A stretch of 63,979 nt of DNA, filler included, from Basidiobolus ranarum (taxonomy: Eukaryota): assembly GCA_040143965.1 (NCBI GenBank). It is 4 parts of 4 records of this genome, joined end to end, with 100 filler letters (N's around TTAATTAATTAA, not from the genome) between each part and the next. Parts side by side here need not be neighbours in the genome. Positions count along the whole stretch, not along the records: positions 33,335 to 49,860 come from JASJQH010007215.1; 3 more parts are not named here. The stretch is one strand, 5' to 3'. This document shows, in pieces, positions 16,582 to 49,960 of the stretch (positions are counted from its first letter, which is position 1; the number at the start of each line of letters is the position of its first letter). Under the pieces are notes generated by a model. The model was not told the DNA's origin. It saw nothing but the letters and a program-made list of their open reading frames with translations, and searched no databases. A program made the translations under genes and the position numbers.

Positions 16582-16681
16582 NNNNNNNNNNNNNNNNNNN
16601 NNNNNNNNNNNNNNNNNNNNNNNNNTTAATTAATTAANNNNNNNNNNNNNNNNNNNNNNNNNNNNNNNNNNNNNNNNNNNN
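16582..16681. other. Artificial assembly spacer (N44-TTAATTAATTAA-N44)
   Basis: 100-bp N run containing a six-frame stop linker; same structure as the other two spacers. Confidence 0.97.
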
Positions 16682-33234: not shown

Positions 33235-33334
33235 NNNNNNNNNNNNNNNNNNNNNNNNNNNNNNNNNNNNNNNNNNNNTTAATTAATTAANNNNNNNNNN
33301 NNNNNNNNNNNNNNNNNNNNNNNNNNNNNNNNNN
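33235..33334. other. Artificial assembly spacer
   Basis: N44-TTAATTAATTAA-N44; it cuts the PIG-M CDS. Confidence 0.97.
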
Positions 33335-34395
33335 AGTAAATTCCGATTGAGAATAATTGATAATATCTTAGTGAATTATAAGATAACTAAGTACTAAGCT
33401 ATATATGACTATATAGGTGTTTAGGCAATGCTAATTTCAACATATTTCTGATCCATATATTCTTTTTCACCAACATTGAGCAAACTAGAATTTCTAAGTA
33501 AATTCTGTTGAAATTAGCAATGCATAAGCACCTATATAGTTATATATAGCTTAGTACTGAGTTATCTTATATTTCACTAAGATATTACCTATTATTCTCA
33601 TAAGGAATTTACTTAGAAATTCTCAGATATATGGATTTTTCAAACTTGTGCTAGGAACTCCAAGCTATGCACACATGTTCCTGGGATCTCTTTTAACACA
33701 TTCTATACATTGGTGTGTCTATATTTCGATAAAACTATAAATGTCAACTTTCTACTCAATAAATCAATAAGTGAAAACCACCAATTTCTCTAATTCTCAA
33801 AATCACTTCCAACAGGCTCCCAAATACTTTAACATAAACACCCATATAGTCATACCTAAGCACCTATATAGTCATATATAGCTTAGTATTTAGTTATCTT
33901 ATACTTTCACTAAGATATTACCATTATTCTCATGAGGAATTTACTTGGAATATTTTTACCAACTTAGAAGTTCCTACTTACAATATTGAAACCAAGTTAG
34001 AAGTTTTCAGATATATGTATTTTTCAAAATTGTGCTTGAAGCCCCAAGCTTTGCACACATGTTCCTGAAACTTTTTTTAACACATTCTACACGTTGATTT
34101 GCTTACATCTCGACAAAATTATAAATGTCAACTTTCGATTCAATAAATCAATAAGCGAAAACCACCAATTTCTCTAATTCTGCAAGCCACTTCCAACAGG
34201 CTCCCAAATACTTTAACAGAACCAAACTTTGCACACAGGTTCCTGGGACTTTCCTTAACACATTATAAGTGTTTATGTGTTTACTTCTTGAAAAGGCTTT
34301 AAATATCAACTCTCTATTCAATAAAGCATTAAGTGGAAACTACTAATTACTCTAGTTCTCCAAACCACTTACAAAAAATTCCCAAAATACTTCAA
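33335..34395. repeat. Composite AT-rich inverted plus tandem repeat block
   Basis: Inverted arms ~33335-33441 and ~33505-33613, with unit A repeated directly at ~33858-33945. Unit B (~215 bp) at ~33622-33835, ~34006-34218 and partially ~34228-34395. Confidence 0.88.
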
Positions 34396-36283
34396 TATAT
34401 ATAACTACGACAGAGAGAGTAAAAAGCAAGCAGAGTCTTTCTAGTAAATATAATAGGATTACATGCTAGAATAGGTAAGGTGGAGATGAAGTTGTTGAGG
34501 AATGGTCTACTTTACTGCAACTAGGATAAACTCTATCTACATGGTTATCAGGATCATGAACCGATACAATTATTGGGTAACTTAGGTACACTAGAGGGTA
34601 AGGGAGATATATGTATATACAGGTATTATTTTTCTACCATGTGAAAAAGTTAAAGTTCTTTCCACAGTTGGATTATTGATTGAATTATAACTCAGGGTAT
34701 TTTACAAGCATGCTACAGTGCGACTTTCCTTTAGTATCATTCAATAGACTCAACCTTGGGACAATCATGTTAAACCAGGCCTTTGACAATCCTCCCATCT
34801 TACTTTTTTTATCATCCTTTGACTATAACATTGATAAGCATGTTACACAAGCTCCTGGATCCAATATGTGAAGTATCATGGCTTCCGATACACGATTTCC
34901 TAGATTTCATCCGGCTAAATGGTCAGCCCCATTGATGCCACTTACATAACTACCTACTAGTCACCAGTACTACCAGATAGTCTTTTGAGGCAGAGCTCAC
35001 AACTGGTTAATATGATATACGCTAGATTGAAATTCGTTGAAGACTGTAAAAAACCAATCATTAGGCCGAAGGGTTCAAACGTCATACCAGACCAATGGAA
35101 GCGACTGATCAGGTTAAGAATTACTATTATATATTACGACTGACTGAGCTAGGACTATCCAGCCAACAATTAAAATTTAGATGGTGGATTTTGCCGGGTC
35201 ATATAATCATAATATTTTTAAGTTAGAACCACAAATTTTTTGAAGATAGAATCAGGACTTCGAATACCGAGGAAGTTGAACACATGTATAACATGTTGTG
35301 ATGGATGTCCGATATTGGAACCAATATTATCACTGTCACGGTCACAGTCACGAATATATTGGGTACCACGAAGCAGTTCCAGTGCCAACCCTATCATTTT
35401 TGAAAGACAAAGTAACACAGGGCAATCTACATTGGTTACACATTACTATGACACTATGAATCACGATCTGCCTTCCAGAGATTTGTGATAGTTAGAGAAT
35501 GTGAATGGATGTTGAGTGCCGTTCATCCTTAGCCCCAATAAAAACAAAATTGAGTTTGAAAAATGTTCCCTTTTATTGTTGCTGAGTACGTTACACAAAC
35601 ACTCCTACATTGCAGTCGAGATATACATGTAATACAGAGATCGGGGGCGATTTCTTATCTATTAATCGAAGTAGTTTCACTTAGCCATGTAATTTGTTCA
35701 CTATTATAGTCTCTGGGATGCACTCAGTTTTTCTTCCCAGAGCACAGAAAGACCCTTGGGGTCAATGTGAGCCAGGATAGGTGGTTCCTGGTTTCGTTCC
35801 GACCCAGAAATCAATACTTCATACTGCGAAGTTCCATCCATTGGCTCCTCTAAAGGCCATCAAGCTTGCGTGGATCCGGGTTTTCCGACGGTATGTGATT
35901 CGTTAGCACAATCCGAAATCAGAAATTCGCTATCTCCAATATCTGGTGAATTCCGCCAACTCTTCACTTATTATTCGAAAGCCATGATGTCACAGTCAAG
36001 AAACTTCCGAGTGGCTCAACTCAGAGTATTGTGAGCAGTAACCGCTAATCCCTTGGTGTTAAGATCTTTATTGAAAATCTAGTTGGATGGGGGTCGTAAT
36101 GGTGTATGTATGTATACTGCAGATAACTTCGGCAATGAGGATGCATGCCCTAATAGTATTAATCTATTTTCAGATTGACATGATCTGTGAATTAAACATT
36201 GATGAATTTACAATGGGAAATTGAACACTATGATGCTCATGTTGATGATGATATTTGGATTGATTCCTTCTCCTGGGAGATGT

Positions 36284-37579
36284 CTAAGAATCGTCTGTAT
36301 GAACCGGTATGTGGTTCGCCTTCGTAACTCCCTTGGCTGCTACATACGCAAATGGGATTGAGAACACAAAGAGGACGCAATTGATTACTACCACGTGAAT
36401 CGGAGATACATGAAGCAAAGGGATGTACCAGGATATGGCTGTACCAGCAGATTGTACACATTTATAAAATCCCGAGAATCTTGATAAAATCATTGCGTTG
36501 TTAGTGATTGCTCCAAGAATCCAATAGCACCAAGTTTGAATCATCGCATCTGATATGCCACATAGCAAAAGCAAGACCAATGCACTTATATAATCACTAT
36601 CCACAATATCAATTCCAGAGCGAGTGATTATATCAGTACGCGATAATTCCAGCACAATACATCCAGTCCATGTTGTAGTATAGAAAATAGTTAGGAATAA
36701 GAGACCCAACATAGCACGTTTGGGGCGTGAGAACAGAGGATTGTCGAGAAACTGTCCGAAAGTAAGAGATCCTAGCATTTGTGAAGCCCAGTAGAAAATC
36801 GCATTAAAGGCATGTGAACGAGTGGAAAAAAGATCATTATTAAAGTTACTAAATCTATAGCTGTAAAACCAATTGGAGTAGAAGAATAATGGCATCAGAA
36901 GAAGCAGTTTACGGTGGAGAAACGCATGCGGAATTTGTCTTATTTCATGATGAAATTGAAATTTTGTTTTCGTAGTAACTCTGCTACCATCGCTCCTGAC
37001 TACGGTGGCGGGATTGATCAATAGCAAGGAGAAAATTCCACTCAATACACTTAGAACCACAAAAGACACATTCACTGCGCTATATGTCAGCCCACAAAGG
37101 GTCAAGAGTCCTCCGATAAATGCTCCAGAATTGAATATCGGCCAAAAAATCCCAAAAAACCGCCCTTTTTGGTTTTCCATCGGGTATGCCATCATAATCA
37201 CCCCCTGTGCAGTCCACACAATGGCACATCCAAACCCAGCAAATACGGCACCCACAATAGTGAATACATTCTGTGTGTTTGACGACAACCATATCATCAA
37301 GAAGTAAACTATGTAGGTGCCGGAGCCTATGAGAAAGATTATTCTGGGTCCCAGCATATTATTCAAACTGCCTGATATGATGGAGAATACTGAACAAGTG
37401 ACATAGAATACGGTGTTTACTGTTGTGGTGCTCTGCTGGTTAAGGTTTCCAAGCGTTCCGATTCCATAATTCGCGTTGTACGCTCCAATCATCAGGCAAC
37501 AGATCAGTCCCACTAAAATTAACTGACTCAAAGGGCTGTTCAGTCTTAGATTATTAGTGGACATGTTAATCCATTCCAT
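36284..37579 (-). CDS. UNC93-like MFS membrane protein, intronless
   Basis: About 12 hydrophobic segments; motifs WTAQGVIMMAYP.E.QKGRFFGIFW.IFNSG, FFYSNWFYSY and SRFSGFYKCVQSAG. The start could be 37579 or 37564. Confidence 0.9.
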   Translation of the reverse strand: MEWINMSTNNLRLNSPLSQLILVGLICCLMIGAYNANYGIGTLGNLNQQSTTTVNTVFYVTCSVFSIISGSLNNMLGPRIIFLIGSGTYIVYFLMIWLSSNTQNVFTIVGAVFAGFGCAIVWTAQGVIMMAYPMENQKGRFFGIFWPIFNSGAFIGGLLTLCGLTYSAVNVSFVVLSVLSGIFSLLLINPATVVRSDGSRVTTKTKFQFHHEIRQIPHAFLHRKLLLLMPLFFYSNWFYSYRFSNFNNDLFSTRSHAFNAIFYWASQMLGSLTFGQFLDNPLFSRPKRAMLGLLFLTIFYTTTWTGCIVLELSRTDIITRSGIDIVDSDYISALVLLLLCGISDAMIQTWCYWILGAITNNAMILSRFSGFYKCVQSAGTAISWYIPLLHVSPIHVVVINCVLFVFSIPFAYVAAKGVTKANHIPVHTDDS

Positions 37580-40500
37580 ATTATACAAGCTTAGCACCAC
37601 AAAGAAGAGAACAAGAAGTCAGAGCCGGAGAAAGGATTAGTGGGTCAATAATAATAACAAGTGTTAAGGAGGGGTCCCATATCGATACATGTAGACTTTA
37701 TAAGAAAGGAGCCTGGATAGAAAACTCCACCGAATTAGTATGTGATAGACTAAAAAGGAACATTGCATAATGATTTATTTGATGACACCTCTTTTGTATG
37801 AAGATTAAACGAATCATTGGTACGACAGACAAATATGGTTGTTCGTATACTCTGAACGGATGCGATGGCTAATTTGATATCGTTTAATCTCCATCCTTAC
37901 TCATCTGTGGAAATCCAGAGCCAACTATATGACACAATGTAGATTTACTGTTACGATCGCATCTCGTAACCCAATTGGCTTGTCATTATAAGCTCTGGAC
38001 CACAACGTAGGAATTTATACAAAACACTGAAAGTTCATGGCGAGCTGATTACGCATACAAATTGTTATACCCGGAAAGATCTTGTTCTTCCTAAAAGCTA
38101 CACAGGATGCCATGCGTCGATAAACCTGCTACTGACCACTGCTCAGTGCCCAGTGCTTATCTTACTGGATAAATGATAGGGCGAATGTTTTTATAGTTTA
38201 CTTGATAATAATGATCGTTCATAGGTTTCCACCCCTCAGAGTTTACAGGGCTAATGAGCTGTGTGCTGGGGGGTCTGGTCATATTCCAGTTACTTGAGTC
38301 TGATTCTTATTCGGCTTCGAAAATCCCAAGCTGGAGATGGAGCTGGGATGACCGCTAATTATACATCAGTATTTCCCTTTCCTGATAGGCTAGAGTTTCT
38401 TTGGTAATCTTATTGGTTGTGTAGATAGCCTTCGGATTGTAATTACCTCTAATTACCTCGTATCAAACGGTAATGAGTCTATGTAAGGTAAAAAGAGGAG
38501 ACATGGGCCACGGGCGTGTTTATCGAGTATTGTATTAACTAGCTCAATGGCTATGTATGAGCTCGACCAGTTTCGGATCTACTTGACTGCTAGATATTCT
38601 CTGCAGATTATTTACACTGCTTAGTATGAACACTGAATCATATATTTGGCAGGAGAATTATAGTTTCCTTCGTTCTAAAGTACTAGTGAATTCATTACTA
38701 TTGTATATATCGGTTTCCAGAGATATCCAAGATGAGCTTGCTTTTGTTCCGGGAGAAAAAGAGATTGGGAGCTTTAGTTAACTATGGACATGATATATTT
38801 TGTGACAAGTGTGTGAATTCACCATAGTGTTTTATTATGGCTCATATGGTGCTTACAACTTAGTCGAAAGCTGATAGGACAAATTGGCAGGTATGTCATA
38901 TAGGATGCTGGATTATCTGCTCAGGCAAATTGAGCTAAAGATGTCAAGCATATTAGTACCAGACAATTTTAAAATATATCCCAAATATAGTAGATGCTTG
39001 AATACTCACATGTGTGTTCTTTTTAGAAATAACAAATGCCACTCAAATTGGAAGCCTTGGAGCTTCCGAACGCTTCTTCTAGCCTTAATTAGGTAGCGTA
39101 CATTGATGATCAATTGCTAACTAATTACACATATCCAAATGGTAGATATAAGGGTTCCATGGCCAACTGTTGAAGTGTCGCAATTAAGCACCTAAATATA
39201 CATATATCATGTTTATTATGTCTAATGTTCATCAAGTGAAGATTTCATATAATTACCCTAAACACTGTTGTATATCTCAAGTACTTGTAACACTAAGGTA
39301 CAAAGCTCGAAACAAATTTAAATCCTTTTCACTCTATCGCATTCACAAGAAATGTGTCAGTCAATTCAAAACACTGAAATTTTCTTCTAGGCAAATTAAG
39401 GGAATATAATGGCCAATGGCGCCAGACGTAGAACTAGTTGGTGGAATGACAATACCTGCACATAATTACAACCTATGAATTCATTTAGTATTGAATCTGA
39501 ATCCAAGCCTAGGCACTATATTGTGTGAGAGGTACTATTTTACTTACCATTCATAGATACAAGATCATAGAAGTTGAACCATAGAGTACTGAAGAATGAT
39601 TATATGGTCTAATGCGTCTAAAATTGGTCTTTGGAATTGCTTATAATGTAGCCAGATAAGTGCCAGTACGATTAGCCATTTTAGAGCTAATTTAAACTTT
39701 GCTAATTCACAGTTACTCAATGTTTACAAAAAATATATGATTAAATCTCAACCTGGCCGTAGATGGATAAATATTTATTCCATAAGGGCCAGAGCTTTTA
39801 GACCTTGACTAAAAATGATAGAATAAAATCGATCGAAGCTGATAATGCATGAGGGTACTTGATAGTGACACATAAATCTTTCCATCCAACACGATATATA
39901 CGACACATCAGGCACAATAAGGTGAAACAAGTCCAGTAAACACCTAAAGTCATAGTTTTCTGCCAGTGTACTCCTTTGAGGTATCTTGCAAGTCAGCTCT
40001 GTATGCATGATACACAAACTGATATTGACCTTCCAGAGCGGAGTATGAAATATTTGACAAGGGAAGGCCCAGCAGCAACGATTTAGACTGTAATTCACTC
40101 GATCAATAGTAGCAATTTAATAAGTATTTACAAAACCATTAACAGCCTGATTTCACCTGATAAATAAATTTTCTCCACTTTTTTCTCCTGAATTTGTCTG
40201 TTAATTTATACCAAAGTCAAGGGTTCCTGGATTAGGTAAAGGGACTCATTAAAGGGTGACATCAGCTAATAATGTATCTATGTGATAGATGATATAGGAA
40301 GTATTGAAGACACTGGTATCATTACTTCCGGTTCAGATATATTAGTAGTAATTTATGGTAGGCCACACTGCTTACCTGATAACTAATGTCTTGTGTCTAC
40401 TTCAACTCTCTACCACAAAGTGATATGAAAATATTTTATTGGGACAAAAGATGATAGGCTGTCATGATTCAGCAGAGTGACTTTTGAATTCAGAATAATA

Positions 40501-41057
40501 TAGGTTCAAGTATGTTCACAAGAATTATATCTTTCAATCAAATATGTTGATTTCATTGACGACATGAAAAAGGCATATGTATTTGCTTCGTTGTTGCGGA
40601 GATCGGGAATAATCATCGTTTTCTCAAAGCGGAAGCCATGGCCAAAACTTGATTAGCATCTCCAATCATTTGAAGGTATTTCGTACATGGTGAAGATTAA
40701 GAGAAAAGAAATACAGGATTTCATAAATAGTTAACTCGTAGTTATCATCACCATGCGGCCACAGGAATAAAATTAAACTTGAGATCTTAGGACTATTGCT
40801 TCTCACTTCAAAAAGTAGCATGCTATTCATTTCCTCTATCTCATCAATTTTGCAATCACGTTCTAAATCAATTTGTCACTACACCTGATGAGGTGATTTA
40901 GTGCCAAGTATTAATGGCGAATTGTTACCTATCTGGGTGTGGTTGCTTAGTGTATCACCTACAATCCCAACAGCAGATAGAGATAATCTAATTAAGTTAG
41001 TATATATGAGGACTTTCTTCTAAACTCTAATCTCAAGCTTATTAGTAAGGATATACA

Positions 41058-41896
41058 ATGAAACTCTTCACTACTGCACTTTTACTTGCCACAGTTTCCT
41101 TGGCACATGCGAGGAATAGCAGTAATGTCACTGCACCCAGTCCTACCATTCAATTGAAAAATACTGCGTATGGATAGTTTCTTTTGGAGAACTTTTCCCA
41201 ATCACTAACCTAAATTCATTTTCTAGCTTCCTCTTTCTCGATTTCCAAGAAGATATCGTTTCCGGGTGGAATAGCACCGATCCAAGAAAAGATCAGTTTT
41301 TGACCGCTTCACGTAAGCTCTTCCGCGAAGTGCATGGGAAAGGTCTTCCAGTGATTGCCGTAAAGCAAGAGGTACAGTTTACGTACGATAATGGAACTGT
41401 GAATTTTGACTAACTTGGAGAATTCAAAGTTTCGTGCTGGCCATATAGATATTCATCCCAACAATGCACTATTCCAACGTAGGAAAGTGGCAAATCAATT
41501 GGTTGAGGGTACTGACGGAGCGCGCTTTATCCGCGGTATGCGTCCACTCAAGGGAGACATTGTCATTGCTAAGCGACGTGTTGATGCGTTTTTTGGTACC
41601 GATTTGGATATAGTGTTGAGATCACTTAACGTCGAACATATTATCATTTCTGGTTGTTTTGCAACGTAAGTACTCTGAAATGAAACTGAATCAAGAGTGA
41701 GGCTTACTTTATTTTTTTCAGTGGCTCTGTATTTGGTACCTTACGCGGTGGTGTCGATCGTGACTATAAGGTTACTGTCGTCAAAGAAACCGCTAGTGAT
41801 GCTAACAGTGCCGCATGGGAATTGCTGACCACACGTATGATGCCCGCTCAAGGAAACGTTGTTAGCTTAGCAGATGTCTTGAGCTCATTGAACTAA
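41058..41896 (+). CDS. Isochorismatase-like (cysteine hydrolase fold) protein with signal peptide, 4 exons
   Basis: MKLFTTALLLATVSLAHA signal; FLFLDFQEDIV; DIVIAKRRVDAFFGTDLDIVLRSLNVEHIIISG; TLRGGVDRDYKVTVV; three GT-AG introns. Confidence 0.88.
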
Positions 41897-44800
41897 GCCA
41901 AGGAAATATATATCTAGATCGATAGATTTCTTCGTAGGATCACTTTACTTCAAATAAATCACTGGATTATGTTAGCCCTCATCATACGAATATAGTATTT
42001 ATCGCGTAGATCATATTCCTTCTATTCCATATATGCCAAGCAAGTAGCTTGGACCGGTGAATTAGTAGAATAGAACTTGCTCTATGATGCGAAACACCAG
42101 TCACGTTGATGATATAAATGCTCGACGACTTATAGGATAGGTGAACATTGAGATTTCAAGGAGTGACACATTCACTAACCATTTAAGGTATTAGTATTGA
42201 TTGTTGGTTCGATACTACATGAGGATTTACCCCCTTTAAACCATCGTACCATTCTACGCATGGATTAGTACGTGTTTTTCTTCTTGATTATCAATCTTCT
42301 GGATGGTTGACATATTCTATTGGTAAAAGCGCGACTGTCCAACATGGCACACACCCTAAGATTTAATTGTACGCCACTAACAATATCCTTATAAGTCATG
42401 ATCTCACGCTTCTGTATCACTTGAATTTCTAGTAACTTAATTGAATGCCATAATCACTATAGGCAATTGGTCCTAGTTTAATATGGTGACATAAAGAAAT
42501 GGAGCTCTTGAAAATCTCATGTTATCAAACTTTACTCAAGAATCCATATTGTGTGATTTTCTAAGAAACGTAGCAAGTCACAACTGCATACTATTATTCT
42601 CAAGTCGCATATTTAAAATATTAAAAATAGGATGCAATACTATTTCATTTCTCGGAAACAAAAACTGCCTGAATATTGAATACATTCAACACCCAACGAT
42701 CAGAACATTCAATCAGTCTCGATTAGTTTTCTGAAAATTAAGTAAAGGATGTTGTAGAGTTTACAATATTCAGTACGTCAATAAACTCCAGTAGAATAGT
42801 GAAACTACAACGAGAGAACATTCATCTCAAAAGCACTCTATTTCCCGTATATCAGCACTGAGGTGTAAATCGCAAGTTTAAGGATATGAATGGCATTTCA
42901 ATAGGAGTAATATTTGCGTTATATAGCATCATTACTTCACATCAGAAGCCTAGGAAAGAGGAAAAAGTTTGTGTTGAGTACTAACTATACTTGTGACAGC
43001 TGAATAGCAGGAGTAAAACCCGATAATAAATTCCAAAGCTTGTGGGCTTATTACTAGAGCATACTGTTAAGGTATGTCAATTAGACACAGATTCCAGTCA
43101 ACAGTCAAGTATAATAGTGATATTAGAATATTTCAGTGTAGGCCATAGCTTCATAGCTGAGAGCTCAAGAAGGTACAGACTACTATACTATGATAAAGAA
43201 AAAGAAAAGTCTTCCAACTTGGAAAGGTCATATGTATATAACAAAAATAGTGAAAGTATATTCTGCTCTATGCATGAAGTTTTTGGATAGATAATGGGTA
43301 GACTTGATCCCCAAAAGTACCTGAAACTGAATAAATTAAGAGCAGGGAGAATATCAGTAGTTTTGAATGCTAACAATATTCACCTCATGTGTAAACAAAC
43401 TGGGCAATATCAAAGTTATTGAAATTTTAGAATTTAGCAGACAATTGTGACAACCTTATCATCTGGTAGTAATTTATATTTTACAATCTAAGAAATTGTC
43501 GAATAAAAGCTATTTAGTTTAGCTTCTCTTTCATGAATTTATTACGCATCAAGCAGACCAATGTTAGGGTATTGAATGGTAGTAATCTTAAGCATGCTTA
43601 TTGTACGAACAAAGTTTGGAGAATGGTTCTTTGAAGAAAATCAGCATTTTTTGAAGCTCGAAATAGTTTACAAACTCTATCATACCCTACTATAGTTTGT
43701 TGAACATCGGCAAATTCCAGCAATAATTCCAAAACAAACAATATCATGGCTACTTTCTCAGAGTATAGAATTCTCTATTCTCAATATGCTCAACCTCTGT
43801 GAACTGTTAAGAAGTTCTCCAATTTGAACACAGATTATTGTTTCACTAATTTGGCTTTATGAGTACTTAATATACTCGCCTCTTCCCTATTAGAACATCA
43901 GAGCCAAGAAATATTTACCAGGGATAAAGTAATTAATGTAGGTTGTTGATCTTGGGAGGAGGCACAATGCCCATTTTTGATTACAAGGGAATAACTGTCA
44001 GGAGATTTCTTTTAGTACATATAATCATTAATTGAGTTAACAAGTGACTGAGACTAGATGTGGATTCACCTCATTGGATTGTACTACATTTCGCGTTTCG
44101 TATGATTTGGTCGATCGATCACTAATAAAGTTAAATCATTGTGACAAATGGCATGCTGAAATCGTCAAGTCTTTAATTGCTATTTCCAAATTGGTACATC
44201 GAAAGCAGTAGCAATGGGGTGAGGGGTTAGTTGGACATCATGAGAGCTCCTAACCCTGAGACCACTTGGCTTGAGCGTGGCGCTGTCCTAAACGATGATT
44301 TGTCACTCCACTCCCAAATGAGTGTTGCCACATCACGGGTAGAGTGAAAACGCTTAGTAAAGAATCGCACATGCAGCGATAAGTTGAGTTCCATGAACTA
44401 GCATTAACTACTGGAGTTTTTGCAATGGATGTAACATTCGAGCTGTGCACTTTGCATTTCCCAAGCCTGGTTACTTTCAAAAGAATTATTTCCTGATACG
44501 ACTTAAACAGCGGCTCCCAATCTGAATGGTATACAACTCTTTTCTCTTGAAATAACTTGTTTCATATAAGGTTGTTACGAAAAAATTTGTCTGATTGCCG
44601 TATTGGTGTTGGAGGGCTTGTCTTGCAGGTTACAAGTATAGAATTGCCCAAGTTTAGAAATTAACAATTTATTTTGATGACTGGGGATTGATGCGAGTCC
44701 AACATCCGAATTTTTCTATTGGATGCTTCGTAATCAATCCCATCCTCCAACATATTGACTGTTTGGATTCACCAGTGTAACTTCAGATCAAGCAAGATTT

Positions 44801-45069
44801 TGGCAAGAGGTTTCTTTTAAAAGTGACGGCATGGGCCTGTGAGAAATGTATAGGAGGCTTCAACTTCTCCACTTTGTCACCATCACAGTCTTGCATCCAC
44901 TTCGCTCTTTTCTTCTTAATTATCCAACACATTTACACCATACATCAAACAAATCTAGAGTCCTTGAACTCTAGTCATTTCACAGCTTAAGTACTGGAAC
45001 TTCAAATTGTGATTAGTCTTAATTCCGTATCCATATTTTGAAGTCAATCTAGTACAATAACCGCCTACG

Positions 45070-45654
45070 ATGCTGGATTTCAAAACGCACAAAATGGTGC
45101 TTTTGGGTGATGGAGGTGTTGGGAAGACGGCTTTGACATTACAGTTGTGCTCTGCTCATTTTGTAGAGAACTATAATCCCACAATTGAAAACGTTTACCG
45201 CAAGCAGGTGGTTATTGATGACAAGGCGTGTATTTTAGAAGTGCTTGACACTGCTGGCCAACAAGAGTATTCTACTTTACGAGAGCAATGGATACGCGAG
45301 GGAGAGGCCTTTTTATTAGTCTATTGTATAACTGAGAGGTCGTCATTTGAACGCTTAGAGGATATCCGACAACATATTACCAGTACAGTGGGTTCAAAAA
45401 CGACGCCAATGATACTAATTGGTAATAAATGCGACAAGACATCAGAGAGGCAAGTGACTCAGCAAGAAGGCTTAGCTATGGCTCGACGATTTGGATGCCA
45501 GTTTATAGAGAGCTCAGCTAAAACCGCAGTCAATGTTGAAAAGGCATTTTTTGCCCTAGTCCGAAGCTTACGCCAAGTATATGGGGATTATTATTCCAAA
45601 AAAAGGCCAAGTATCCGCAAAAAATTCAAGAAATTGAAATGTACTGTTATGTAA
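45070..45654 (+). CDS. Ras small GTPase (fungal Ras2-like), intronless
   Basis: G-box motifs GDGGVGKT, DTAGQ, GNKCD and ESSAK; polybasic tail and CAAX box CTVM. Confidence 0.95.
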   Translation: MLDFKTHKMVLLGDGGVGKTALTLQLCSAHFVENYNPTIENVYRKQVVIDDKACILEVLDTAGQQEYSTLREQWIREGEAFLLVYCITERSSFERLEDIRQHITSTVGSKTTPMILIGNKCDKTSERQVTQQEGLAMARRFGCQFIESSAKTAVNVEKAFFALVRSLRQVYGDYYSKKRPSIRKKFKKLKCTVM

Positions 45655-46459
45655 ACAACTCGTCTTCTACTACATTCAGAATAACACATTCACATGCAGT
45701 TTATTTTTTACATATGGTTATCCGATTCCAAAGGGTTGTTTCCCTCTAAGCATGTTCTATATCTCTTTCTACACTGTACTTTCTGTTTCTATCTTATGCT
45801 CCTTATTTTTGGAATTGTTTTTACCCCGGTGGTCCATTTTTTCACACCTAATTTATATTGATTTTGAACTATGTATCAGCTACTTATACATTACTATAAA
45901 ATACACTTAATTTTGCAGCTGAACTAAAATAATCACGTTCGATCACCTTCGCTCATCATATCCTTAAAATCCCACTTGATTCACTTTTGAATAATTGATG
46001 TTACACGACATATATCGTCAACCTCATCTCACTAGTACAAAGGATACGCATTTGGTCAAGTAATTAAGAGTTCTAAGGGTTGATTGGATATATTAGAAGC
46101 TAAAGAACAAATTGGAAGTAGAGATGAGAAGGTCACATACCGCTAGATGGGTAATGTTAGTCGGTACCAGTCATCATGCAAAAGACGTCGTCAATGCTAC
46201 CATTGAATAAGATCGCAAAGGTCTTGATAACGATTTCAGATGAAGCATTACACCATTTTCGGATAGGATTATCAATGACATGGATTGTACATAAGGATTT
46301 TTTCAACTCTATGGGTAATTCAATGTGTTTTATGCAAGTACAGGATTTTACTCTAATAGTAGACGATGTAAATTTTTTTTTGGACGAATCAAAATTAAAT
46401 TTTGGATGATACGAAAATACAATTGAGACAAAAAACATATTAGTTTAGACATGTTGAGG

Positions 46460-46560
46460 TTAATCTTGAGGCTTTTTTCCACTTACCTGTAAAAACCTTA
46501 ATCCCCTGGCCGAAGCCAAAGAAAACTGCGTTTGATACAGCGATTAAATGTGGCGCGAAT
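46460..46560 (-). ncRNA. Candidate Fanzor omegaRNA scaffold
   Basis: Directly 3' of the Fanzor stop: a GCTG..CAGT mini-stem, a TTCTTTGGC-TTCG-GCCAGGGGA hairpin with C(UUCG)G loop (46502-46522) and an AGGTTTTT..AAAAAGCCT hairpin (46469-46498). Boundaries are a guess. Confidence 0.45.
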
Positions 46561-47076
46561 GACAGAAAGGAATTGGCCGAACTCGTTCGTTGAGTATCTC
46601 ATTAGAGATATCATAAATATTTTGCGTGGCATTTACATCTCGGTTCCAGATCATCCCACAGCTTTGGCAAGCTAGGACGCTAACAATAAAGGCCATTTTG
46701 TCAACTTTACCTTTGACGTCCGAAATTCGTCAACATATACGACCAAAAGCCTTCTTTCTCTCGGCACTTTAAGAGGCGATATAGAGTTCCGGTTAAGCCT
46801 ACTTGGTGCCTGTTGATTTTCGATGAGTCCTTTCCCTTCATACCATTCCCGAAAGTAATACTAGGGGCTTTGTCCTTGTCATACTTGAATGACACTGACC
46901 TCCATCTACATGACATGATTGTATATGAGGTTTAGATATTTTTGGTAAAAAAAGAGATGCTGTGATATTTACCTTTCTTTATCCTTTTTTTCGGCCCTCT
47001 CTTGCCTTCTCCTTCCTTTCTTCTCTTTCGGTTCTTTTTTGAATAGTTCCTTTTTTTACGATTATACTTTCTTCCA
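46544..47076 (-). pseudogene. Fanzor (eukaryotic TnpB-like RuvC nuclease) 3' half, frameshifted
   Basis: Across frames: basic RKYNRKK..KKNRKRR, putative intron 46906-46972, WRSVSFKYDKDKAPSITFGNG, VVYVDEFRTSK (46711-46734), LACQSCGMIWNRDVNATQNI (RDVNA region 46628-46648), stop at 46544. Confidence 0.85.
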
Positions 47077-49527
47077 AGGATTTCTTAGTAATGCACAAGG
47101 TCATCTGCTCATGAAGTTTCTCAAATCATGAATACTTGCTTGTATCACCACATAAAAATGTGGAGTTGCGAATAGTTACCCTAAGTGCCAGACACTATAC
47201 TAGATAGTTAAACCACATAAATCACTATACTTGAAATAGTTCATTGGTGACAGGATTCGGCGTGCTAAACAGTGAACCTAATACGAGGCTTGAGACATTC
47301 CCTCTGAAAATGTTGCTCCCATGAATCTGATGGAAGTGATTTGCTTTGTTTACAATACTGGGTATATCCGGCTTGTAAAGTGTATGTTGATTGCTTTCTT
47401 TATTACTAATAGCATTGTAATGACATGATTGAATACGCAGTATTCAGCTACAAATCAATGATAAGTTATCCTGACCAAAATTTAGATCGAGTTATATACA
47501 ATAAATGTATTATAAATTATGCTTTAAGTTGCCAGGCTCTAATCGCGGGCCCACTCGGGGGTTAGGGTAAATTTGACTGTGGTGACTCTGGGTTTCTCGG
47601 GAACAGTATTAAAACCAACAGAGATAGCATCATCGAAGCTAACATTTCTTAATAAATCCTTTACTTTAGTCAAATCGCCTCCGCAGTCCAATAAGGACTC
47701 TCTCTTAAAATTTCCTGGATGTAAGAATAACTTCTCACTTAGAGCCGATTTTCCTATGCTTAAACATTTCTTGGGCGCGTTGGGGGTAGGGTCCAATAAA
47801 GGCAAGACGGATGGCCTTCTAGCTTGGTTGAATTTACCAGGTGTCGGGCATCCTTCGTATTCGTTGAAAGGCATCTCTTGAAGTAGAGGAAGGGCTGATG
47901 GTCTTCTTCCAGGATTGAATCCTTCCGGATAGGATTGGATCTCTTCTGATCCACAACAATATTGGAATACAGCTAGCAAATTCATTTTTAGAGAAAGAGT
48001 TTGAAGGTCACAAAATTAGAAGCAAGAGGGGAAATTTTGTTCGATGTATTTCTTTTGGCCAAGGAATTTATATGAAAAATAAGTGATGAAGCCTCTTAAT
48101 GTTGCTTAACTTTGGCTGTTGCTTGCATCAAAATCATTATGTAATGCAATAAACAAACGTTCTACACAGTTTTCTACATAGTTCTGTAAATTTGGCGATG
48201 TATACATGGATGCATAGAGGACTAGGAGTTCCTAGCGAAGAGTGCGACAATCCATCAAGCATATGATTGCATAAAATGGTTGGTGGTTTGTACAGGACAA
48301 GTTACGTTTGCCAATACAAGTAGTTCTGGGTTGAATGTGCATAGCTTCTATCTGTACATTGGTGATTTATCTGGATTATTATCAGTAGAATTCAATTTTC
48401 ACAATAGATGCATGTCTTACGCCTTTCGTAGTGTATTGGGCCATCAAGTTACATATTTTCTTGGTCAGCCTATTCTGATTTCAATGCATGAAAGGATTAT
48501 TGTTGGTATATTTAGTAGCGTAAAGCCATGTCCTCGGAAGACAGTTGCTGTGTGCAATTCTCTTTGATTACGTGATGCCACCGAGTGCTAGATTGCCAAC
48601 AGAAGAATGTAAATAAAAATCACCAGAAGTTGGAACAAAAAAGTACTTTGATCAGGATCCATTGCCGGATATCGGTGATGCAAATAGTTAATAATCTATA
48701 TCAATTGCGCGCATTGTTGATTTTCATTAAAATACTCCGTAAGCGTATGGTTGTTCGTTCGATCCGACGATTCTAATTGTATTACTACTGAATCACTGTA
48801 AAGGACGTTTCAAGATCGCTTACAATGAACTTATCGATTCCGCTTTCTATATGTAAGCAAGGTAGGTAACATGCAATACTCTTTCTAGCATTCATTAATA
48901 TATGCTCAACAGAGTCCAATAGCTTATCCCTAGACACCAGATTCATTATTCACGTACTGAGTCTACAAAGTCGCGACAACCAAGTGAGCTCTCTACAGCC
49001 ATTGTGATTCTCATGATTGAATCGGCTATTACAATGAATGGAACAGAGCTGCAATAGCTACTATTGTACATTTCCGTCGCCATGAAGGGTACTTTTGTTA
49101 AGCTACAATGATGTGAGAGTGAATAGGAACACATGATTTTGTCAAGGTGTACAATAACTTGTATAACTTTACAACAAAATTGGGGCTTCATAGAGTAATG
49201 GATGAAGACCGGACATAAATGGCTAATTGTGGAGTAGTCATGCTTTTTTTAGTCATGTCTGTCTAACTTACAGGATTAGAATGGCATTTACACACTTAGC
49301 TATGCTATATACCATATGTTCCAACCTTGGAAAAGCATTGCTAAACCAAGTGCAAAGTGTATATATTCTGACACAGATTCAATGATGGTTCGAAAAGAAG
49401 ATAAGAGATGCTGTGATATTGACCTTTCTTTATCCTTTTTTTCGGCCCTCTCTTACCTTCTCCTTCCTTTCTTCTCTTTCGGTTCTTTTTTGTATGGTTC
49501 TTTTTTTTACGATTATACTTTCTTCCA
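46952..49527. repeat. 125-bp direct repeat pair (46952-47076 and 49403-49527)
   Basis: aagagatgctgtgatatt...gattatactttcttcca occurs twice with about 5 mismatches counted by eye. Confidence 0.92.
47539..47985 (-). CDS. Hypothetical 148-aa protein with two RRPS motifs
   Basis: ATG-initiated intronless ORF with a TATA-like element ~80 bp upstream. Internal repeat FNPGRRPSALPLL/FNQARRPSVLPLL; C-terminal KFTLTP. Confidence 0.65.
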   Translation of the reverse strand: MNLLAVFQYCCGSEEIQSYPEGFNPGRRPSALPLLQEMPFNEYEGCPTPGKFNQARRPSVLPLLDPTPNAPKKCLSIGKSALSEKLFLHPGNFKRESLLDCGGDLTKVKDLLRNVSFDDAISVGFNTVPEKPRVTTVKFTLTPEWARD

Positions 49528-49860
49528 CCCTCTATCAAGACATTTACCATTTCTTCTTGCGCTCTCTGGCGTCCTTGATACAAATAGAACCTGTTTTTTG
49601 CAGTAGTACTACTATAGAAATCAAAGCATTTTTGCATGTTTGACTTTATGTATTTGAGGTAAGTAACATACTTTTGCAGTGAAACTGTTTTGGCAGTCGG
49701 TTTATTTGTGATGATGGCCAGCGTATCTTCATTTCTAGCTCTTTCAAGTTCTTCCTTTGCCAATCTTGCAGAACCAGAGCACACATCATACTCTTTTCTT
49801 GTAAATCTTCTTATCTGGTATTTTCCATTTTCACCACCAGACCCAAGAGCGACCAGGGTC
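49403..49860 (-). pseudogene. Fanzor central portion (RuvC-I to basic region), cut by contig end
   Basis: Begins GAC CCT GGT CGC (DPGR) at 49860. After a frameshift it reads GSGGENGKYQIRRFTRKEYDVCSG...PTAKTVSLQKYVTYLKYI...FDFYS...RFYLYQGRQRAQEEMVNVLIEGGRKYNRKKK, and it overlaps the 3' fragment by 125 bp. Confidence 0.8.
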
Positions 49861-49960
49861 NNNNNNNNNNNNNNNNNNNNNNNNNNNNNNNNNNNNNNNN
49901 NNNNTTAATTAATTAANNNNNNNNNNNNNNNNNNNNNNNNNNNNNNNNNNNNNNNNNNNN
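49861..49960. other. Artificial assembly spacer
   Basis: N44-TTAATTAATTAA-N44. Confidence 0.97.

What the first reader, a model, noticed from the sequence alone, without database searches (positions are those of the whole stretch)
46544..49860. Hidden Fanzor (eukaryotic RNA-guided TnpB/Cas12-related nuclease) relic in two pieces
Seen in sequence: minus-strand translation across frames gives the three RuvC segments in order. These are DPGR (49849-49860), ITFGNG (~46842-46859) with VDEFRTSK (46711-46734), and CQSC..WNRDVNATQNI (~46616-46669). Established: Fanzors have a rearranged RuvC site with Gly at the canonical RuvC-II Glu position and the catalytic Glu shifted to a V-x-E-x-x-T-S motif before the zinc finger, which matches this layout. 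Inference: this is a Fanzor1-type family of this fungus. This copy is dead (frameshifts, first CxxC after TSK missing), but intact copies may exist elsewhere in the genome.
Basis: partly seen in the sequence, partly recalled or inferred. Interest (0 to 1): 0.9.

Follow-up and report, generated by a model that had tools for sequence, protein, structure and literature searches.

The report
Dead Fanzor1 nuclease gene, split

Summary
All four motifs lie at the stated minus-strand coordinates, in the order RuvC-I, RuvC-II, alternative Glu, RuvC-III. A read-through with X at each break scores 226.7 bits (E 2.4e-68) against a profile of 11 fungal homologues; the best of 1000 shuffles scores 9.0 bits. 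That profile hits Spizellomyces punctatus Fanzor1 at E 4.8e-13, and the DPG Asp and DEF Glu fall on its catalytic D383 and E541. A model of a homologue finds seven Fanzor1 structures first.

The copy is dead:
- 14 nt are missing just after DPGR.
- A 2.33-kb insert flanked by a 125-nt duplication splits the gene.
- There is one in-frame TAA and one frameshift.
- The first CxxC is deleted.

The N-terminal half is absent only because the contig ends at DPGR. The window is four contigs joined by N linkers.

The insert carries an intact gene 82% identical to a Basidiobolus meristosporus protein, so the host is probably Basidiobolus-like. The closest named relatives of the relic are from Mucorales.

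Fanzor1 has been known in such fungi since 2013, so this is a new member of a known kind and of low interest. Element ends, transposase, guide RNA and intact copies could not be examined.

The parts
49849..49860 (-). RuvC-I motif DPGR (catalytic Asp codon 49860-49858), on the last 12 bases of the contig. It is followed by a 14-nt deletion and frameshift relative to homologues.
   Evidence: Read. The contig end and linker are shown. In 11 of 12 homologues of A2 an Asp stands at this position, and all 12 have 15 residues up to the Q of (Y/H)QIRR. The family's DPG Asp aligns with SpuFz1 D383.
49403..49847 (-). 5' fragment in one open frame: LGSGGENGKYQIRRF...RFYLYQGRQRAQEEMVNVLIEGGRKYN, followed by a Lys/Arg-rich, NLS-like linker. 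The open frame runs on to 49344.
   Evidence: 297 proteins at E<=1e-3 and 109 at E<=1e-10 in the representative library. The two best Fanzor hits in the PDB are SpuFz1 (E 0.036) and PpFz1 (E 0.71). tblastn with 8 homologues gives E 3e-49 to 7e-18.
49403..49527 (.). Direct repeat, copy A (linker-coding sequence).
   Evidence: 125-130 nt, 95-96% identical to copy B, with sharp boundaries.
47077..49402 (.). Insert X (2,326 nt), unrelated to Fanzor, which splits the gene. It carries an intact 148-aa gene at 47985-47539 (minus strand).
   Evidence: tblastn with 8 Fanzor homologues finds nothing inside X. The ORF product is 82% identical over 94% of its length to Basidiobolus meristosporus K493DRAFT_295672. 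No Pfam family is found. No terminal inverted repeat of 20 nt or more is found.
46952..47076 (.). Direct repeat, copy B.
46749..46951 (-). 3' fragment, first frame: the end of the linker, an in-frame TAA (46934-46932), and the RuvC-II strand ITFGNG (46859-46842) with Gly in place of the canonical Glu, continuing to ...LYRLLKCREKEG.
   Evidence: Read. hhalign to A1 positions 286-334 gives E 4.4e-11. It is 50% identical over 52 aa to Basidiobolus ranarum K7432_007851. The Glu-to-Gly/Pro substitution is described in PMC10530073.
46711..46749 (-). Second frame after a frameshift at about 46749: LLVVYVDEFRTSK, with the alternative catalytic Glu (codon 46728-46726).
   Evidence: Read. hhalign to A1 positions 333-348 gives E 1.8e-05. 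The family's DE(Y/F)xTS Glu aligns with SpuFz1 E541.
46670..46710 (-). 41-nt remnant where the first CxxC of the zinc finger (TNB domain) should lie. It shows a deletion plus a frameshift and holds no Cys codon in either relevant frame.
   Evidence: 15 profile columns are unmatched. Homologues have 23-26 residues here.
46544..46669 (-). Third frame: the second CxxC (CQSC), RuvC-III WNRDVNATQNI (Asp codon 46639-46637), the C-terminal tail and the stop (46546-46544).
   Evidence: Pfam PF07282 (Cas12f1-like TNB) E 4.3e-05, 24.0 bits, below the 26.3 cut-off. hhalign to A1 positions 363-400 gives E 6.3e-10. The best PDB hits are TnpB/Cas12-type nucleases.

Best explanation
Window 49860-46544 (minus strand) is a decayed, non-functional copy of a Fanzor1 gene. 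Fanzor1 is the eukaryotic, transposon-borne homologue of TnpB/Cas12. The family has the rearranged RuvC site of Fanzors: Asp in DPG, Gly at the old RuvC-II Glu position, a compensating Glu in DE(F/Y)xTS about 42 residues downstream, and Asp in RDxNA after a CxxC...CxxC zinc finger. By inference from characterised Fanzor1 enzymes, an intact ancestor was an omegaRNA-guided double-strand DNA endonuclease with a Lys/Arg-rich, NLS-like linker, carried on a DNA transposon.

This copy cannot make that protein. It has:
- a 14-nt deletion just after DPGR;
- a 2.33-kb foreign insert, carrying an intact host-type gene, flanked by a 125-nt duplication of the linker-coding sequence;
- one nonsense codon;
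- one further frameshift;
- a frameshifting deletion that removes the first zinc-finger CxxC.

The part upstream of DPGR is not in the window, because the contig ends there. The host is probably a Basidiobolus-like fungus.

Shown here: homology, motif order, the breaks and the fold of the family. Inferred: RNA guidance, nuclear targeting, transposon carriage and the host genus.
For: - Motifs and frames were read directly.
- The read-through with X at the breaks scores 226.7 bits (E 2.4e-68) against the HMM of A1, in one domain over profile positions 129-383 of 389. The best of 1000 shuffles scores 9.0 bits.
- The pieces are colinear on the profile.
- The 5' fragment alone finds 297 proteins at E<=1e-3.
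- Of 20 clusters looked up, 9 carry an organism name, and all 9 are Mucorales: Rhizopus, Mucor, Mycotypha and Apophysomyces. They include 759-aa Mucor lusitanicus proteins that UniRef names 'Cas12f1-like TNB domain-containing'.
- Pfam PF07282 is found on the relic's last piece (E 4.3e-05). It is above the cut-off in 2 of 10 homologues scanned and below it in 3 more.
- The A1 profile hits SpuFz1 at E 4.8e-13, with the catalytic D383 and E541 aligned.
- An AlphaFold model of homologue P0096 (pLDDT 73.2) finds Fanzor1 structures at Foldseek ranks 1-7 (E 4.5e-12 to 3.7e-06), Fanzor2 at rank 8, then Cas12f.
- The rearranged site is described in PMC10530073 (passages).
- Breaks.
- Host: the neighbouring gene is 82% identical to a B. 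meristosporus protein, and a B. ranarum protein is a related Fanzor fragment.
Against: - The single-piece evidence is weak. Pfam on the relic is below the gathering score (24.0 against 26.3 bits). Direct phmmer hits of the pieces to Fanzor structures are marginal (E 0.036 and 0.71), and the VDEFRTSK piece alone found nothing relevant in the PDB.
- DPGR is only four residues at a contig end, where assemblies are least reliable, and it was left out of the HMM alignment.
- The structural evidence concerns a homologue about 37% identical to the relic, not the relic itself, and the TM-scores are modest (0.42).
- No guide RNA, transposon end or transposase was seen. The 3' region folds no better than shuffles (z -0.69).
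- The host genus rests on one gene.
- Frameshifts were not checked against reads, so some could be assembly errors.
Confidence: 0.92

Rival explanations
1. The gene is alive. On this view the apparent breaks are introns or sequencing and assembly errors, and the organism makes a working Fanzor1 from this locus.
For: Fanzor genes do carry introns (PMC10530073). The 5' fragment is one open frame of 172 codons. The contig end and a purine-rich low-complexity linker are error-prone places. No reads could be consulted.
Against: Three of the breaks are losses of sequence, not extra sequence that could be spliced out: 14 nt after DPGR, the shift at about 46749, and 28-37 nt with the first CxxC. The TAA lies in frame within linker sequence that is collinear with homologues. 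The one GT..AG candidate around the TAA leaves the wrong frame, and so does the one after TSK (read). The 2.33-kb interruption contains a conserved gene and is flanked by a 125-nt duplication of coding sequence, which is not an intron.
Confidence: 0.04
2. It is a Fanzor2, or a prokaryotic TnpB acquired or contaminating, rather than a Fanzor1.
For: The zinc-finger/RuvC-III piece on its own hits TnpB-like and Cas12 proteins, including mimivirus Fanzor2 (9b0l, E 0.088), ahead of any Fanzor1. The Pfam family is shared by all of these.
Against: The family profile hits SpuFz1 at E 4.8e-13, while TnpB/Cas12f come at E 0.0056 or weaker and Fanzor2 is not listed at E<=0.01. Foldseek ranks seven Fanzor1 chains above Fanzor2. 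All named relatives are fungal. The flanking genes are eukaryotic: Ras family, UNC-93/MFS and a Basidiobolus-type gene. The canonical RuvC-II Glu of most TnpBs is a Gly here.
Confidence: 0.03
3. The split into two pieces is an assembly chimera at the low-complexity linker, not a real insertion. On this view the two halves belong to different Fanzor copies or loci.
For: The two repeat copies differ at 5 of 125 positions, as two different family copies might. The contig itself ends inside the gene, which suggests the family troubles the assembler. A 125-nt target duplication fits no ordinary transposon.
Against: Both repeat copies are present with unique sequence on both sides, and the two halves abut the repeat exactly where one continuous gene would. 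A collapse would normally remove a copy, not keep two diverged ones. No read evidence exists either way.
Confidence: 0.12

Closest known systems
Spizellomyces punctatus Fanzor1 (SpuFz1; PDB 8GKH, 9CEU-9CEZ)
   Same: It is the best solved relative of the family by profile (E 4.8e-13) and by fold (Foldseek ranks 1-4, E 4.5e-12 to 1e-10). It shares the catalytic layout: DPx Asp = D383, DEYKTS Glu = E541, then a zinc finger and RDxNA.
   Different: It is only 17-19% identical in the structural alignment. SpuFz1 is an intact, active chytrid enzyme with a defined omegaRNA. The window copy is broken in five places and its N-terminal half and guide region are unknown. The long Lys/Arg-rich linker between GGxKYN and FGxG was not aligned to SpuFz1.
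Fanzor1 families of Mucorales (MCi, ROr and PBl elements of Bao & Jurka 2013; Parasitella parasitica Fanzor1, PDB 9CF0)
   Same: The closest named sequence relatives are Mucorales proteins, 30-55% identical over the 5' fragment. They show the same conserved blocks: DPGR..VFTA, QxRR.S.KEY, PT.KT, RF.LYQGRQRA..EM.N.L..GGKKYN, the K/R linker, FG.G, DE(Y/F).TSK, and CxxC..CxxC..W.RD.NA. Fanzor1 families in Rhizopus oryzae (4), Phycomyces (3) and Mucor circinelloides (10) were reported in 2013.
   Different: The host here is probably Basidiobolus-like (a different phylum), not Mucorales. I could not tell which of the published families is nearest, because their sequences sit in supplements I could not open. 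PpFz1 itself is a weak match (E 0.71 to the 5' fragment; not listed at E<=0.01 with the profile). Some Mucorales elements have MuDR-like ends with 9-bp TSDs; no ends are visible here.
Basidiobolus ranarum hypothetical protein K7432_007851 (P0186)
   Same: It comes from the same probable genus. It contains the same Fanzor1 blocks (FAFSNLIRTD, RFYLYQGxQRA, GGRKYN plus K/R linker, ISFGNGMFGKDS). It is 65% identical over 52 aa to the 5' fragment and 50% over 52 aa to the 3' fragment.
   Different: It is a 239-aa gene model that lacks the DPGR region, the alternative Glu motif, the zinc finger and RuvC-III. It is therefore itself a fragment or a mis-modelled copy, and it is too diverged to be the same element.
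Prokaryotic TnpB (IS200/IS605, for example ISDra2) and Cas12f
   Same: They share the RuvC plus zinc-finger (TNB) core. Weak profile hits (E 0.0056-0.0094) and fold hits (E 1.7e-05 and weaker) support this.
   Different: The canonical RuvC-II Glu is replaced by Gly, with a relocated Glu. The context is eukaryotic, with an NLS-like linker. No TnpA is seen.

Membership tests
Fanzor1 | RuvC-I catalytic Asp (DPG-type motif) aligned with that of a characterised Fanzor1 | tested here: met
   DPGR is at 49860-49849. The family's DPG Asp falls on chain residue 777, which is SpuFz1 D383. Asp is present in 11 of 12 close homologues. Caveat: the motif is four residues at a contig end and is followed by a 14-nt deletion.
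Fanzor1 | Canonical RuvC-II Glu replaced by Gly or Pro, with a compensating Glu about 45 residues downstream | tested here: met
   In ITFGNG the Gly at 46850-46848 stands in the canonical Glu position; that placement is my reading, since no canonical TnpB was aligned here. The Glu of VDEFRTSK lies 42 residues downstream in the read-through. The rule is stated in PMC10530073. The Glu aligns with SpuFz1 E541 through the profile.
Fanzor1 | RuvC-III Asp in an RDxNA motif after the zinc finger | tested here: met
   WNRDVNATQNI at 46648-46616. hhalign to the family gives E 6.3e-10. It aligns with the NRDxNAxxN of TnpB-like nucleases in the PDB. Alignment to SpuFz1 D606 was not shown directly.
Fanzor1 | Complete CxxC...CxxC zinc finger (TNB domain) | tested here: not met
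   Only the second pair (CQSC) is present. 15 profile columns holding the first pair are unmatched. This is a defect of this copy, not of the family: homologues have both pairs.
Fanzor1 | Overall profile and fold closer to Fanzor1 than to Fanzor2, TnpB or Cas12 | tested here: met
   The profile hits SpuFz1 at E 4.8e-13, against 0.0056 or weaker for TnpB/Cas12f. Foldseek ranks 1-7 are Fanzor1 and rank 8 is Fanzor2. The fold test was done on homologue P0096, not on the relic.
Fanzor1 | N-terminal WED/REC domains | not testable with these tools
   The contig ends at DPGR, no genome is held, and tblastn with full-length homologues finds nothing elsewhere in the window.
Fanzor1 | omegaRNA encoded at or overlapping the 3' end of the gene | tested here: inconclusive
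   The fold of 46640-46330 (minus strand) has z -0.69 against shuffles. No Rfam family is found on the contig. There are no related copies for covariation and no RNA data.
Fanzor1 | Residence in a eukaryotic transposon (TIRs, TSD, nearby transposase) | not testable with these tools
   Only the 3' side is on the contig. There is no second copy in the window, no inverted repeat of note, and no transposase domain in the ORFs tested.
Prokaryotic TnpB (IS200/IS605/IS607) | Canonical Glu in RuvC-II, and a prokaryotic IS context with TnpA | tested here: not met
   A Gly stands at the canonical position. The neighbours are eukaryotic genes.

The most novel reading that the evidence does not exclude
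Basidiobolus-type fungi may harbour their own, possibly still active, Fanzor1 family whose nearest named relatives are in Mucorales, which would point to transfer of a Fanzor-bearing transposon between phyla. On the same reading, the split copy would record an unusual event: a host-gene-bearing DNA circle integrated by homologous recombination, or a templated insertion occurred, at the purine-rich linker, leaving the 125-nt duplication.
Probability: 0.1. Interest if true: 0.4.

Novelty: new member of a known kind. Interest (0 to 1): 0.18.

Why it matters
The finding matters little in itself. It shows that a reader can recognise a frameshifted Fanzor1 from motifs alone, and it adds a probable Basidiobolus-lineage member to a nuclease family of interest for genome editing. 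No paper in the searchable library mentions Fanzor together with Basidiobolus. The main texts of four Fanzor papers do not name the genus, but their supplementary host tables could not be opened and may well list it. If intact copies exist in this genome, they would be ordinary candidates for the usual Fanzor characterisation.

Tried and rejected
- Whole-genome search for intact copies: no genome is held.
- Word-indexed protein search among longer proteins with the 5' fragment: 337 candidates, none at E<=0.001. The exhaustive search then found 297, so that blank was a sensitivity limit.
- Metagenome contig scan: 217 pattern matches and 3 confirmed loci (L001-L003), only 37-38% identical on contigs of 1.2-3.3 kb. 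They were too distant and too short to define ends, and I did not use them.
- Second copy in the window: none by tblastn or blastn.
- Guide RNA: the fold of the 3' end is not distinguishable from shuffles (z -0.69; 23 of 100 shuffles fold as well), and Rfam gives no match.
- Intron explanations for the breaks: the GT..AG candidates after TSK (46710-46671) and around the TAA leave the wrong frame (read), so I rejected them.
- X as a transposon: no terminal inverted repeats of 20 nt or more and no Pfam domain in its three longest ORFs. The origin of X and of the 125-nt duplication remains unexplained.
- Earlier notes of this scan: none for this genome or this sequence. Notes on other genomes concern unrelated Fanzor relics.
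- The VDEFRTSK piece alone against the PDB: only chance-level hits.
Full report
**What the window is.** The 63,979-base window is not one molecule. Three N44-TTAATTAATTAA-N44 linkers (16582-16681, 33235-33334, 49861-49960) join four contigs. The finding lies on the third contig, 33335-49860, a length of 16,526 bases. That matches the 'longest contig' recorded for the window's own protein P0169. The claimed DPGR occupies the last 12 bases of that contig.

**Check of the observation.** Reading the minus strand, I find the motifs exactly as stated, in three different frames:
- DPGR at 49860-49849;
- ITFGNG at 46859-46842;
- VDEFRTSK at 46734-46711;
- CQSC...WNRDVNATQNI at 46669-46616.

The 5' fragment is one open frame of 172 codons (49859-49344).

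**Is it more than chance?**
- The 5' fragment alone finds 297 proteins at E<=1e-3, 109 at E<=1e-10 and 4 at E<=1e-30 in an exhaustive search of 1.84 billion representatives. The best hit is 55% identical.
- I aligned 11 of these homologues (A1). The three downstream pieces align colinearly to that profile, at positions 286-334 (E 4.4e-11), 333-348 (E 1.8e-05) and 363-400 (E 6.3e-10).
- A read-through made in a script from the window file, with X at each break, scores 226.7 bits (E 2.4e-68) against an HMM of A1. It matches as a single domain over profile positions 129-383 of 389. The best of 1000 shuffles scores 9.0 bits.

**What family it is.**
- Pfam gives PF07282 (Cas12f1-like TNB) on the last piece at E 4.3e-05, 24.0 bits, just under the 26.3 cut-off.
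- Of 10 homologues scanned, 2 exceed that cut-off and 3 fall below it. The other 5 show no TNB match; four are gene models that end before this domain, and one is a chimeric model with a CAP-Gly domain.
- The A1 profile hits Spizellomyces punctatus Fanzor1 (8GKH and six further entries) at E 4.8e-13. TnpB and Cas12f entries follow only at E 0.0056-0.0094.
- In that alignment the family's DPG Asp falls on chain residue 777 and the DE(Y/F)KTS Glu on 935. With the 394-residue tag offset these are D383 and E541, which PMC11423790 names, with D606, as the catalytic residues (passage seen).
- PMC10530073 states that Fanzors carry Pro or Gly in place of the RuvC-II Glu, and a compensating Glu 'approximately 45 residues away' (passages). 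In the relic the distance from the Gly of FGNG to the Glu of VDEF is 42 residues.
- An AlphaFold2 model of homologue P0096 (453 aa, 33-row alignment A4, mean pLDDT 73.2, pTM 0.62) retrieves Fanzor1 structures at Foldseek ranks 1-7. These are SpuFz at E 4.5e-12 to 1e-10, PpFz at 6.5e-08 and 3.2e-07, and GtFz at 3.7e-06. Mimivirus Fanzor2 comes at rank 8 (1.5e-05), followed by Cas12f.
- The TM-scores are modest (0.42 at best), and the model is of a relative, not of the relic.

**The breaks, in gene order.**
1. The contig ends at 49860, so everything upstream of DPGR is simply absent from the data. In full-length relatives this is about 470 residues.
2. Between the R of DPGR and the Q of YQIRR, 12 of 12 close homologues have 15 residues. 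The window has 31 nt, so 14 nt are missing and the frame shifts.
3. After the linker-coding sequence the gene is interrupted by 2,326 nt (X, 47077-49402). X is flanked by a direct repeat of 125 nt (49403-49527 and 46952-47076) that is 96% identical and has sharp edges.
4. The 3' half resumes in the same frame but has an in-frame TAA at 46934-46932.
5. A frameshift lies at about 46749, between ...REKEG and LLVVYVDEF.
6. Between TSK and the second CxxC only 41 nt remain, where homologues have 23-26 codons. There is no Cys codon, and the frame shifts again. Fifteen profile columns holding the first CxxC are unmatched.

Introns do not rescue these breaks. Breaks 2, 5 and 6 are losses of sequence, and the GT..AG candidates near breaks 4 and 6 leave the wrong frame. 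None of this could be checked against reads.

**The insert.**
- X shows no similarity to Fanzor, no terminal inverted repeats of 20 nt or more and no Pfam domain.
- It carries an intact 148-aa gene (47985-47539, minus strand) that is 82% identical over 94% of its length to the hypothetical protein K493DRAFT_295672 of Basidiobolus meristosporus.
- A 125-nt duplication is far too long for a transposon target-site duplication.
- Possible causes are integration of a circular DNA by recombination at the linker sequence, templated insertion at a break in this purine-rich stretch, or an assembly chimera. I cannot decide among them, and I leave the cause unexplained.

**Host and relatives.**
- Of 20 clusters looked up, 9 carry an organism name, and all 9 are Mucorales: Rhizopus microsporus (twice), R. 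azygosporus, Mucor lusitanicus, M. mucedo, M. plumbeus, Mycotypha africana (twice) and Apophysomyces sp.. For Mycotypha and Apophysomyces the order was checked; for the other genera it is recalled.
- The neighbouring gene points instead to Basidiobolus, which belongs to a different phylum.
- A last search found a Basidiobolus ranarum protein (K7432_007851, 239 aa) that is itself a Fanzor1 fragment. It is 65% identical over 52 aa to the 5' half and 50% over 52 aa to the 3' half.
- The host assignment rests on one gene and is an inference.
- The other genes on the contig are ordinary eukaryotic ones: a Ras-family GTPase and an UNC-93/MFS protein.

**How it works.**
- This copy most likely does nothing.
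- By inference from characterised Fanzor1 enzymes (PMC10432273, PMC10530073 and PMC11423790; passages only), its intact ancestor was an omegaRNA-guided endonuclease. It would have cut double-stranded DNA with one RuvC site (Asp, relocated Glu, Asp), entered the nucleus through its Lys/Arg-rich linker, and travelled on a DNA transposon.
- None of the RNA or transposon features could be shown here. The 3' region folds no better than shuffles (z -0.69), Rfam finds nothing, and the element's ends are unknown.

**Novelty.**
- Bao & Jurka (2013, PMC3627910) already list Fanzor1 families in Rhizopus oryzae (4), Phycomyces blakesleeanus (3), Mucor circinelloides (10) and Spizellomyces (3) (Table 1 passage).
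[quoted passage not shown] In NCBI taxonomy that grouping includes Basidiobolus.
- No paper in the searchable library holds both 'Fanzor' and 'Basidiobolus'.
- A term search finds no mention of the genus in the main texts of four Fanzor papers. Their supplementary tables, which I could not see, may list it.
- I therefore rate this a new member of a known kind and score interest low.

Noticed in passing
window 16582-16681, 33235-33334, 49861-49960: The window is four contigs joined by artificial N44-TTAATTAATTAA-N44 linkers. Features must not be read across these joins, and neighbouring contigs need not be adjacent in the genome.
   Followed up: yes
window 47539-47985 (minus strand): An intact 148-aa gene of unknown function, with two RRPSxLPLL motifs, lies inside the insert that splits the Fanzor relic. 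It is 82% identical to Basidiobolus meristosporus K493DRAFT_295672 and matches no Pfam family.
   Followed up: partly
window 46952-47076 and 49403-49527: A 125-nt direct duplication (96% identity) of purine-rich linker-coding sequence flanks the 2.33-kb insert. It is too long for a target-site duplication, and its mechanism is unexplained.
   Followed up: partly
window 45061-45654 (plus strand): A Ras-family small GTPase exon (Pfam PF00071, E 3.3e-53) lies convergent with the relic, about 890 bp downstream of its stop.
   Followed up: partly
window 36284-37618 (minus strand): A 444-codon open frame matches UNC-93 (E 6.4e-15) and MFS_1 (E 1.2e-13). It looks like an ordinary host transporter-like gene.
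   Followed up: no
protein P0186 (Basidiobolus ranarum K7432_007851) and P0137 (656 aa): Public gene models of this Fanzor family are often fragments or chimeras. P0186 skips the DPGR region and ends before the catalytic Glu. P0137 fuses Fanzor blocks to a CAP-Gly domain. Most of the 150 listed hits are shorter than 300 aa, so the family looks poorly annotated.
   Followed up: no
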